Virus record (IMG/VR): IMGVR_UViG_2718218360_000008
DNA from: a virus
Lineage: Duplodnaviria > Heunggongvirae > Uroviricota > Caudoviricetes
DNA length: 64,000 nucleotides
Reading direction: 5' to 3' (one strand)
Made by a program: the position numbers. Positions 3,001 to 6,000 of this stretch are shown in pieces (positions within the stretch are counted from its first letter, which is position 1; each line of letters starts with the position of its first letter).

Positions 3001-6000
3001 ACCAACCGGGAAAACAGAAGCGACTGAGCCGGTAACATCAAAAAAGCATTCGAAGGCGAGCTGAACTTTGTCCTGAAACTGGCGCGTGAGATGGGGAGAG
3101 CCGACTGGCGCGCCATGCTTGCCGGGATGACATCCACCGAATATGCCGACTGGCGACGTTTTTACTGCACGCATTATTTTCAGGATACCCAGCTGGATAT
3201 GCATTTTTCCGGGCTGATGTACGCCGTACTCAGCCTGTTTTTTGCGATCCGGATATGCATCCGGCGGATTTCAGCCTGTTCGCTCCGGAGGCAGAGGAAG
3301 GACAGGCGGAGACGCCGGACGAAAATGATGTACTGATGCAGAAGGCGGCGGGCCTCGCCGGTGGAGTCCGTTTCGGGGAGGAGGGAAGGAGGTTGTGACA
3401 GTTATTGATGGTATCAGAGGACATTTCAGGAGGTGACCACGATGGCAGGTAATTTTGCCGATCTGACAGCCGTGCTGACACTGGATTCTGCCCGTTTTTC
3501 TGAAGAGGCAGCGCGGGTAAAAAAAGAGCTGGGTGAAACCAGTGCGCTTGCTGATTTGATGTCCGGGAAAGTCAGTCAGTCTTTCAGAAAACAGGCTGAT
3601 GCTGCTGAGCAGAGTCTGAGCCGACAGGCGCTGGCTGCACAAAAAGCCGGGATATCAGTCGGACAGTATAAGGCTGCCATGCGCACACTGCCCGCACAGT
3701 TCACGGATATTGTCACTCAGCTTGCCGGTGGTCAGAATCCCTTCCTTATCATGCTGCAGCAGGGGGGGCAGATCAGCGATTCATTCGGTGGACCGCTCAG
3801 CCTGCTTACCCTGCTGAAGGAGGAACTTCTCGGGATCAGGGATGCCTCTGAATCATCAGAGGAGTCGCTGTCAGATACGGCAAATGCACTGGCTGAAAAT
3901 GCCCGGAATGCCGGTGAGCTGGGACGATTTATGTCGGTGGCCCGTGTGGCGGCAGGTGGCGGGGTTGCCGTACTGGCCGCGCTTGCTGCCGCCGCCTGGC
4001 AGGCAGAGCAGGCTGATCGGGCCTTATTGCGTTCACTGATCCTGACCGGAGGGGCGGCTGCCACCACAACGGCAGAATTGTGGAAAATGGCCGGGGTGAT
4101 CAGCGATGAAGCCGGTGGTGGTATCAGACAGGCGGCAGAAAATCTGGCCCGTCTGGCAGAAAGCGGGAAATATACCGCCGGGCAGCTACGGATCATGGGG
4201 GAAACCTCTCAGAGATGGCTGCAGACGGTGGGGGACGATGCCGGGAAGGTGGAAAAAGCCTTTGAAGGGATTGCAGCAGATCCGGTGAAGGCGCTGGCCT
4301 CCCTGAATCAGCAGTATAACTTCCTGAGCGTTTCCCAGTTACGCCATATTGATGAGCTTGAGCGCACGAAAGGTAAACAGGCTGCGGTGACGGAGGCGAT
4401 GTCCCTGTTTGCGGATGTCATGAATGCACGTCTGGAGCAACTTGATAAAGCGGCCACGCCGGTGGAAAAAATCTGGGACGATGTTAAAACCTGGACTTCT
4501 GACGCATGGGCATGGATAGGTGATCATACACTGGGGGCACTCAGTCTGATCACTGACGTGGTGGCCGGAACCGTTGAACAAGTGAAGCTGCTGCTTGTGC
4601 AGGGGGATCTGGCGCTGGCTGAATTTATTCAGTCAGCCTGGGAAACGACAAAGAATGTGCCCGGCGTTGGTGCGTTGTTTGGTGAACTGGCAGAAGAGAA
4701 CCGCGTATTTATTGAGAAAACAAAACGCGATGAACTGGCGCTGAGAAAATCCATTGCGGAACGGGATGCGCGTATACGCCAGGGGGAAATGGGGTACATC
4801 AACCGCTCGCGTGCAACAGGCGTCAGCAAAGGTCCAGGGCAGCAGGAAGCCGTCAGCCGTCTGGCTGAAGAGCTGACAGGTAAAAAGCATACATCACCGA
4901 AAACGCGCTCTGCCGGGGAGAGGGAAGAGGAGCAGGCAAGAGAAGCCTGCTTGCCCTTGAAGCTGAGCTCAGGACGCTGGAAAAACACAGCGGTGCGAAT
5001 GAGAAAATCAGCCGGCAGCGCCGTGATTTATGGAAGGCGGAAAGTCAGTATGCGGTCCTGAAAGAGGCTGCCACGAAACGACAGTTATCTGAGCAGGAAA
5101 AATCCCTGCTGGCCCATGAGAAAGAGACGCTGGAGTACAAACGCCAGCTGGCTGACCTGGGCGACAAGGTTGAACACCAGAAACGCCTGAATGAGCTGGC
5201 ACAGCAGGCGGTGCGGTTTGAAGAGCAGCAGAGCGCGAAGCAGGCCGCCATCAGCGCAAAAGCCCGCGGTCTCACTGACCGTCAGGCGCAGCGGGAGTCT
5301 GAAGCGCAGCGTCTTCGGGACGTGTACGGTGATAATCCGCAGGCGCTGGCCCGGGTCACCGGGGCACTGAAACAGACATGGGCGGATGAAGACATGCTGC
5401 GCGGTGACTGGCTGGCCGGGCTGAAGTCCGGCTGGGGGGAGTGGGCGGAAAGTGCGACGGACAGTTTTTCGCAGGTTAAAAGCGCGGCCACGCAGACCTT
5501 TGACGGTATTGCACAGAATATGGCGGCGATGCTGACCGGTGCAGAGGCAGACTGGCGGGGATTCACCCGTTCGGTGCTGTCCATGATGACAGAAATCCTG
5601 CTTAAACAGGCCATGGTGGGCATTGTCGGGCGTATCGGCAGCGCCATTGGCGGTGCTTTCGGTGGTGGTGCATCTGCTTCCTCGGGGACGGCCATTGAGG
5701 CTGCGGCGGCGAACTTCCATTTCGCGACCGGAGGATTTACGGGGACGGGCGGCAAATATGAGCCTGCGGGGATAGTTCACCGCGGGGAGTTTGTTTTCAC
5801 GAAAGAGGCAACCAGCCGGATAGGTGTGGGGAATCTTTACCGTCTGATGCGCGGCTATGCGGAAGGTGGTTATGTGGGTGGTGCCGGAAGTCCGGCGCAG
5901 ATGCGGCGGGCGGAAGGTATTAATTTTAATCAGAACAATCACGTGGTGATTCAGAACGACGGTATCAACGGACAGGCGGGGCCGCAGCTGATGAAGGCGG

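What the first reader, a model, noticed from the sequence alone, without database searches (positions are those of the whole stretch)
4935..4955. Tape measure gene H carries the same frameshift in both copies
In both copies (here and near 53502-53522) the H reading frame switches after ..SAGEREEEQAR to a second frame reading ..LLALEAELRTLEKH.., which is the lambda H continuation. An identical lesion in two otherwise slightly diverged copies implies it predates the duplication, was spread by gene conversion, or is a context-specific sequencing error. An inactive tape measure gene would make both tails non-functional.
Basis: partly seen in the sequence, partly recalled or inferred. Interest (0 to 1): 0.5.

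Follow-up and report, generated by a model that had tools for sequence, protein, structure and literature searches.

The report
One-base deletion breaks prophage tape-measure gene
Both copies of a lambda-like prophage tail gene (tape measure, H) lack a single T that every related prophage has, so this is either ordinary prophage decay or an assembly error, not a new way of expressing the gene.

Summary
H starts at ATG 3442. It reads in frame for 502 codons, goes out of frame after 4946, and stops at 5061. The lambda-type C-terminal 379 codons continue in the -1 frame to 6086. Copy 2 (52009-54653) is base-for-base identical.

The lesion is the loss of one T (relatives have GAAGCTCTGCTT, the window has GAAGC-CTGCTT), not of a C. 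Putting the T back gives the 881-aa protein of the closest relatives.

Sharing the lesion means little, because the two copies are not diverged here. Copy 1 (1-9437) equals copy 2 apart from 8 single-base deletions and no substitution.

The T-less allele was found nowhere else: not at any of 1,443 homologous sites in 636 complete E. coli genomes, nor in phage, viral, metagenome or species-representative collections.

The source assembly has patchy indel noise. There are 27 private single-base indels in the terminase/portal region, and the 8 deletions in copy 1.

The H deletion differs from that noise. It is not in a homopolymer. It is the only difference in 15.4 kb between copy 2 and an O111:H8 prophage. 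It turns a bulged inverted repeat into a perfect 7-bp one, the signature of a quasipalindrome template-switch.

Best reading: a genuine, strain-private inactivating deletion (about 0.6). An artefact is about 0.3. Programmed recoding is not supported. Low interest.

The parts
3442..4946 (+). H (tape measure) copy 1, in-frame N-terminal part, residues 1-502
   Evidence: Translation. Pfam TMP_2 E=5e-48. Start matches the annotated start in E2863 and Stx2_12E129.
4946..4947 (+). Deletion junction: one T missing between these two C residues (GAAGC|CTGCTT)
   Evidence: Alignment with E2863 and Stx2_12E129, SCPM-O-B-7615 and O111:H8 strain 143.
4947..5061 (+). Out-of-frame tail of the truncated product (37 missense codons plus TGA)
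   Evidence: This peptide has no match in 5.8 billion protein clusters.
4947..6086 (+). H copy 1, C-terminal 379 codons, now in the -1 frame; first possible start codon is GTG 5211
   Evidence: Pfam Tape_meas_lam_C E=1e-21.
4931..4951 (.). Perfect 7-bp inverted repeat AGCAGGC / GCCTGCT with a 7-nt loop, created by the deletion; the intact allele has a bulged T in the right arm
   Evidence: Only 20 of 2,586 possible single-base deletions in the intact gene create such a repeat.
4881..4887 (+). U AAA AAG, a partial -1 slippery heptamer directly after the last -1-frame stop (TAA 4881-4883). It is the only plausible site for leaky restoration of full-length H and is speculative.
   Evidence: No downstream structure.
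52009..53513 (+). H copy 2, in-frame N-terminal part
   Evidence: Identical to copy 1. ORF list.
53514..54653 (+). H copy 2, C-terminal part in the -1 frame; deletion junction at 53513/53514; inverted repeat at 53498-53518
1..14538 (+). Repeat copy 1: tail module of prophage A. Positions 1-9437 equal copy 2 minus 8 single bases. From about 9552 the sequence is a different, O157-type one.
48566..63110 (+). Repeat copy 2: tail module of prophage B (ompW-type prophage beginning about 20376)

Best explanation
A single T was lost from the tape-measure gene of a lambda-like prophage tail module. That module is present twice, in two tandem prophages next to ompW, as a very recent duplication or gene-conversion tract.

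What is shown:
- The deletion shifts the frame after residue 502. Translation from ATG 3442 yields a 539-aa product (502 native plus 37 missense residues).
- That product lacks the C-terminal 379 residues, including the lambda-type C-terminal domain.
- The C-terminal part has no start codon of its own before GTG 5211.

What is inferred:
- Such a product cannot nucleate tail assembly on the tip complex. Both prophages would then be tail-defective unless another resident lambdoid prophage supplies H in trans. This rests on established knowledge of lambda gpH.
- The deletion arose by a quasipalindrome template-switch. The nascent strand copied the left arm AGCAGGC instead of the bulged right arm GC(T)CTGCT, which removed the bulged T.
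- The lesion is in both copies simply because the whole tract of at least 9.4 kb is identical.
For: - Intact relatives have the same flanks plus one T and a continuous 881-aa ORF.
- Copy 2, 47352-62729 (15.4 kb), is identical to the prophage of O111:H8 strain 143 except for this one base. In about 46 kb of 'clean' window sequence (9473-20403, 20376-39919, 47352-62729) it is the only indel. So it sits in high-accuracy sequence, not in a noisy patch.
- It is not a run-length change, unlike nearly all the other private indels.
- It perfects a 7-bp inverted repeat. Only 0.8% of possible one-base deletions in the gene do so, and only 1 of the 35 other private indels does. The hairpin gains stability, -8.3 against -7.2 kcal/mol. 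Quasipalindrome-templated mutations are known hotspots in E. coli (PMC7202029).
- It is present both in the noisy copy 1 and in the clean copy 2.
- Morphogenesis-gene defects are the rule in EHEC lambdoid prophages (PMC2669165, Table 1).
Against: - The allele is private. It is absent from 1,443 homologous sites in 636 complete genomes, from phage records, from genome, viral and metagenome scans and from protein collections.
- The source assembly demonstrably contains many false-looking single-base indels. Some of these are deletions of single non-repeated T or G bases.
- A collapsed or jointly polished repeat would give the same call in both copies whatever the truth.
- No reads are available.
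- The inverted-repeat pattern was noticed after the fact.
Confidence: 0.6

Rival explanations
1. Assembly or sequencing artefact. The real DNA has the T in both copies. A consensus or polishing error in a long exact repeat, where reads cannot be assigned to one copy, produced the same miscall twice.
For: - Two relatives have no indel between them over 42900-47036. Against both, the window has 29 private indel columns there, and terminase and portal are shattered.
- Copy 1 differs from copy 2 by 8 single-base deletions and 0 substitutions, a ratio that natural divergence does not give.
- The noise in copy 1 ends where the repeat ends (about 9473), which is typical of unpolished repeats.
- The allele is unique among all public sequences searched.
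- The source genome is absent from RefSeq complete E. coli genomes.
Against: - It is not a homopolymer.
- Copy 2 is otherwise perfect over 15.4 kb, including T7, G5 and A5 runs, so whatever corrected those runs should also have corrected this site.
- The chance that independent random errors hit the same base in both copies is about 1e-3 or less, given the error density of copy 1.
- No known methylation motif (GATC, CCWGG) lies at the site, as the sequence shows directly.
Confidence: 0.3
2. The deletion is real in only one of the two copies. The assembler or polisher imposed one allele on both.
For: The repeat is exact over more than 9 kb, so short reads cannot be phased. One copy is clean and the other noisy, which suggests the two were built from different data.
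Against: Nothing in the sequence distinguishes this from the main explanation. Copy 1 appears to be an independent, noisier consensus and still lacks the T.
Confidence: 0.07
3. Recoding. Full-length H is still made by a -1 ribosomal slip that compensates for the missing base, for example at U AAA AAG (4881-4887). That would give an 881-aa protein with residues 483-502 replaced.
For: - The heptamer lies immediately after the last -1-frame stop and resembles the module's own G-T slip site, A AAA AAG CAU.
- The length of the protein would be exactly restored.
- A-AAG is intrinsically shift-prone in E. coli (own knowledge).
Against: - All relatives have identical flanks and an uninterrupted ORF, so nothing has evolved for recoding.
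- The first base of the heptamer is wrong.
- There is no stimulatory structure 5-9 nt downstream; the fold z-score is -0.47.
- Homology with lambda H runs in the original frame up to 4946.
Confidence: 0.03

Closest known systems
Phage lambda gpH and the tape-measure proteins of lambdoid Stx/EHEC prophages (Pfam TMP_2 + Tape_meas_lam_C)
   Same: Same gene order (G, T, H, M, L, K, I, J). Same two Pfam domains. The gene is 100% identical, apart from one gap, to the 881-aa H of O111:H8 prophages. The C-terminal region is about 80% identical to lambda-type H.
   Different: The reading frame is broken by a 1-nt deletion after codon 502. No continuous ORF exists in either copy.
Defective lambdoid prophage pool of EHEC (O157 Sakai Sp1-Sp18; PMC2669165)
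   Same: Multiple lambdoid prophages, some in tandem, carry inactivating lesions in morphogenesis genes. Near-identical modules are shared between prophages of one cell. The same prophage A - ompW' - prophage B layout is present in O157:H7 YB14-1.
   Different: Here the particular lesion is private to one assembly, and part of the apparent decay in the window is probably sequencing noise.
Quasipalindrome-associated template-switch mutations in E. coli (PMC7202029)
   Same: An imperfect inverted repeat (7 bp with one bulged base, 7-nt loop) becomes perfect through loss of exactly the bulged base.
   Different: This is inferred from the sequence pattern only. No recurrence at this site was seen in 1,443 homologous sites, so it is not a demonstrably hot site.
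Programmed -1 frameshift of the tail assembly chaperones G/GT
   Same: It is a frameshift in the same tail operon. The genuine site, A AAA AAG, is present and intact at 3040-3046 and 51606-51612, with T in the -1 frame.
   Different: The H lesion lies 1.9 kb downstream, has no slippery site at the shift point, and is absent from relatives. It is a mutation, not a conserved signal.

Membership tests
Lambda-type tail tape measure protein (gpH family) | N-terminal TMP_2 domain (PF06791) | tested here: met
   E=5.4e-48, residues 65-304 of the N-terminal piece.
Lambda-type tail tape measure protein (gpH family) | C-terminal Tape_meas_lam_C domain (PF09718) on the same polypeptide | tested here: not met
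   The domain is present (E=1e-21) but in the -1 frame after the deletion. It sits on one polypeptide only in relatives.
Lambda-type tail tape measure protein (gpH family) | Position between the G/T chaperone genes and M-L-K-I-J | tested here: met
Programmed -1 ribosomal frameshift site | Slippery heptamer X XXY YYZ at the frame junction | tested here: not met
   None at 4946. There is only a partial U AAA AAG 59 nt upstream and G AAA AAC 34 nt downstream.
Programmed -1 ribosomal frameshift site | Stimulatory structure a few nt downstream of the slip site | tested here: not met
   no stable structure near 4888-4900, z=-0.47. The 7-bp hairpin starts 44 nt downstream.
Programmed -1 ribosomal frameshift site | Two-frame arrangement conserved in relatives | tested here: not met
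   every relative examined reads through in one frame, and no relative was found with the two-frame arrangement.
Quasipalindrome template-switch mutation | The ancestral sequence is an imperfect inverted repeat, and the change makes the arms perfectly complementary | tested here: met
   AGCAGGC / GC(T)CTGCT becomes AGCAGGC / GCCTGCT. 0.8% is expected by chance.
Quasipalindrome template-switch mutation | The event occurred in vivo during replication | not testable with these tools
   This needs reads or experiments.
Sequencing/assembly indel error | Other private single-base indels in the same assembly, in excess over substitutions | tested here: met
Sequencing/assembly indel error | Run-length (homopolymer) context, or location in a low-quality patch | tested here: not met
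   The context is GCTCTG. In copy 2 the surrounding 15.4 kb is error-free against strain 143.
Sequencing/assembly indel error | Reads disagree with the consensus | not testable with these tools
   No read data. The source assembly was not identified.

The most novel reading that the evidence does not exclude
The truncated gene is not dead. A low-level -1 slip at U AAA AAG (4881-4887), a near copy of the operon's own G-T slip site, would restore an 881-aa tape measure of exactly wild-type length with 20 substituted residues. Because few H molecules are needed per tail, that could be enough for some functional tails.
Probability: 0.04. Interest if true: 0.35.

Novelty: already known. Interest (0 to 1): 0.1.

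Why it matters
It matters little for biology. At most, one strain carries two tail-defective prophages, which is the normal state of EHEC prophage pools.

It matters more as a caution. The window comes from an assembly with patches of indel noise confined to repeated prophage modules. Frameshifts seen in this window (T, I and J of copy 1; terminase and portal of prophage B) should therefore not be read as biology without reads.

The H deletion is the one lesion that looks genuine. It is also a tidy natural example of a quasipalindrome-type deletion.

Tried and rejected
- **Exact look-ups of the truncated N-terminal product** with either start found nothing on record. This is weakly informative, because annotated pseudogenes yield no protein.
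- **Look-up of the C-terminal fragment** found three assemblies, but their H genes are broken elsewhere and none carries the T-less allele.
- **Exact-pattern scans for the T-less allele** in genome contigs, viral contigs and metagenome contigs all gave 0.
- **Homology search with the out-of-frame tail peptide** gave no real hit.
- **Identifying the source genome** failed. No RefSeq complete E. coli genome matches exactly. O111:H- 11128 was suspected, but it is in the collection, and since no record there matches exactly it cannot be the source.
- **Homopolymer-error explanation** was rejected because of the sequence context.
- **Dam/Dcm-motif systematic nanopore error** was rejected because neither motif is at the site.
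- **Programmed frameshift** was rejected.
- **Spurious duplication by the assembler** was rejected. The copies carry real divergence, 135 substitutions, downstream of 9552 that matches different natural prophages.
- Searches failed on query length. One search was a scripting error (bad anchor) and was redone. One search failed on term syntax.

Full report
**The observation**

Reading the window at both sites and translating all three forward frames over 3301-6120 confirms the finding. An ORF starts at ATG 3442 (MAGNFADLTAVL...) and runs in one frame to ...SAGEREEEQAREA. It then reads 37 unrelated residues and stops at TGA 5059-5061.

The -1 frame reads ...LLALEAELRTLEKHSGANEKISRQRRDLWKAE... 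through to a stop at 6084-6086. Pfam assigns the N-terminal piece to TMP_2 (E=5e-48) and the C-terminal piece to Tape_meas_lam_C (E=1e-21). The gene lies between G/T and M-L-K-I-J.

Copy 2 behaves identically. Positions 3442-6086 are 100% identical to 52009-54653.

**The lesion**

The closest public relatives are prophages of bovine strain E2863 and of O111:H8 strains, and the Stx2a phage of strain 12E129. They match the 2,654-nt query at 99.8-100% but span 2,655 nt. They are annotated with a continuous 881-aa tape measure.

The alignment shows one missing T. Relatives have GAAGCTCTGCTT and both window copies have GAAGC-CTGCTT, with the junction at 4946/4947 and 53513/53514. Re-inserting the T restores an 881-aa ORF reading ...EEQAREALLALEAEL....

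The restored protein is the same, but the missing base is a T.

**The two copies**

Window 1-14538 is a direct repeat of 48566-63110 (98.9% identity), but the divergence is not spread evenly.

- Up to 9437 the copies differ only by 8 single-base deletions in copy 1, with no substitution at all. These are at 542 (A5 to A4), 3237 (T7 to T6, in gene T), 7116, 8015 (G5 to G4, in I), 8429, and 9241, 9299 and 9437 (in J).
- Substitutions begin at 9552.

A shared lesion at 4946 therefore carries no special information. It lies inside a tract that is identical in any case.

**Context**

The window holds two tandem lambdoid prophages at ompW.

- From 9473 to 20403, copy 1 is 100% identical to the right arm of the ompW prophage of O157:H7 TX 265-1.
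- From 20376 an integrase opens a second prophage. It is nearly identical to the ompW prophage of strain SCPM-O-B-7615 up to 39919.
- Its tail module, 47352-62729, is 100% identical to a prophage next to prfC in O111:H8 strain 143, apart from the one missing T.
- The same tandem layout exists in O157:H7 YB14-1, though there the first prophage has a different, 1080-aa tape measure.

**How common is the allele?**

A 91-nt query centred on the junction hits 1,443 places in 636 of 5,426 complete E. coli genomes. None matches at 99% or better, and every listed hit spans 92 nt.

Exact-pattern scans of species-representative genomes, viral contigs and metagenome contigs give 0 matches. The truncated product is not on record. 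Its out-of-frame tail peptide has no match among 5.8 billion protein clusters.

The junction peptide of the repaired protein is read in a single frame in phage tape-measure genes. The allele is private to this assembly, and the assembly itself is not among RefSeq complete E. coli genomes.

**Quality of the assembly**

Two relatives, SCPM-O-B-7615 and Stx2_12E129_PPompW, have no indel between them over 42900-47036. Against both, the window has 29 private indel columns there: 27 single-base insertions or deletions and one 3-bp deletion. It also has 18 private substitutions.

The terminase large subunit, portal and protease/capsid genes are shattered into small ORFs. Together with the 8-deletions-to-0-substitutions pattern of copy 1, this is not what natural decay looks like. 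It is patchy consensus error.

In copy 1 the noise stops exactly where the sequence stops being a repeat, as expected for repeats that could not be polished. By contrast, 9473-20403, 20376-39919 and 47352-62729 (about 46 kb) contain no indel against their nearest relatives other than the H deletion.

**Real or artefact?**

Arguments for an artefact:
- The assembly is demonstrably noisy.
- The allele is unique.
- A jointly derived consensus would repeat an error in both copies.

Arguments for a real deletion:
- It is not a run-length change.
- It sits in the clean copy, whose T7, G5 and A5 runs are all correct.
- It also appears in the independently noisy copy.
- It has a mutational signature.

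On that signature: removing the T converts AGCAGGC-AAGAGAA-GC(T)CTGCT into a perfect 7-bp inverted repeat (4931-4937 / 4945-4951). Only 20 of 2,586 possible one-base deletions in the intact gene (0.8%) would create a perfect repeat of at least 7 bp across their junction. Among the other 35 private indels, only the one at 8429 does. The hairpin is slightly more stable after the deletion.

This is the classic outcome of a quasipalindrome template-switch, a known mutational mechanism in E. coli (PMC7202029). I noticed the pattern after the fact, so I treat it as supportive rather than decisive.

My estimate is about 0.6 for a real deletion in both copies, 0.07 for a real deletion in one copy that was imposed on both, and 0.3 for an artefact.

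**Recoding**

Nothing supports a programmed event. Relatives share identical flanks and an open frame. There is no slippery heptamer at the junction and no structure in the right place.

The operon's genuine G-T site (A AAA AAG, 3040-3046 and 51606-51612) is intact.

One curiosity remains. U AAA AAG CAU at 4881-4890 sits directly after the last -1-frame stop. A -1 slip there would give an 881-aa protein with residues 483-502 replaced. Leaky restoration is conceivable but untested and unselected (about 0.03).

**Consequence and verdict**

If the deletion is real, the product is 502 native residues plus 37 missense residues, without the C-terminal 379 residues. From what is known of lambda gpH, this should abolish tail initiation (inference). 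Similar H genes occur at a median of two places per carrying genome, and prophage-prophage complementation is documented in EHEC (PMC2669165).

Either way the finding is ordinary: a private frameshift in a prophage morphogenesis gene, or an assembly error. Interest is low. The useful by-product is the map of unreliable stretches in this window.

Noticed in passing
window 43224-46923 (within 42900-47036): There are 27 private single-base insertions or deletions, one 3-bp deletion and 18 private substitutions relative to two relatives that have no indel between them. Terminase large subunit, portal and the start of the protease/capsid fusion are shattered into small ORFs. This is almost certainly an unpolished or low-quality stretch of the assembly.
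   Followed up: yes
window 542, 3237, 7116, 8015, 8429, 9241, 9299, 9437: Copy 1 of the tail module differs from copy 2 only by these 8 single-base deletions, mostly in short runs, with no substitution. They frameshift T (81 aa against 102 aa), I and J (three times) in copy 1. The noise ends where copy 1 ceases to be a repeat of copy 2.
   Followed up: yes
window 9473-20403; 20376-39919; 47352-62729: The window is a mosaic of blocks identical or nearly identical to prophages of different EHEC lineages: the O157:H7 TX 265-1 ompW prophage right arm, the SCPM-O-B-7615 ompW prophage, and the O111:H8 strain 143 prfC-side prophage. The two prophages are in tandem at ompW, as in O157:H7 YB14-1, but with prophage A carrying prophage B's tail module up to the middle of J.
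   Followed up: partly
window 3040-3046 and 51606-51612: The canonical -1 slippery heptamer A AAA AAG lies near the end of gene G, with T open in the -1 frame. This is the conserved G/GT tail-chaperone programmed frameshift. Here the heptamer is the dnaX type rather than lambda's G GGA AAG.
   Followed up: partly
window 15336-18723 (- strand): A DUF4765 gene is split into 846-aa and 290-aa ORFs. The same 846-aa product is called in several O157:H7 assemblies, and the gene is annotated as frameshifted in YB14-1. This split is therefore a shared, genuine pseudogene, in contrast to the private indels elsewhere.
   Followed up: partly
window about 36738-36808: The near-identical prophage in SCPM-O-B-7615 has an annotated 71-nt tRNA-Met at the equivalent position, but ARAGORN reports no tRNA anywhere in the window.
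   Followed up: no
window 8428-8453: The single-G deletion at 8429 in copy 1 also lies in a 7-bp inverted repeat (12-nt loop) at the end of gene I. It is in a G run, so it is probably a run-length error rather than a templated change.
   Followed up: no
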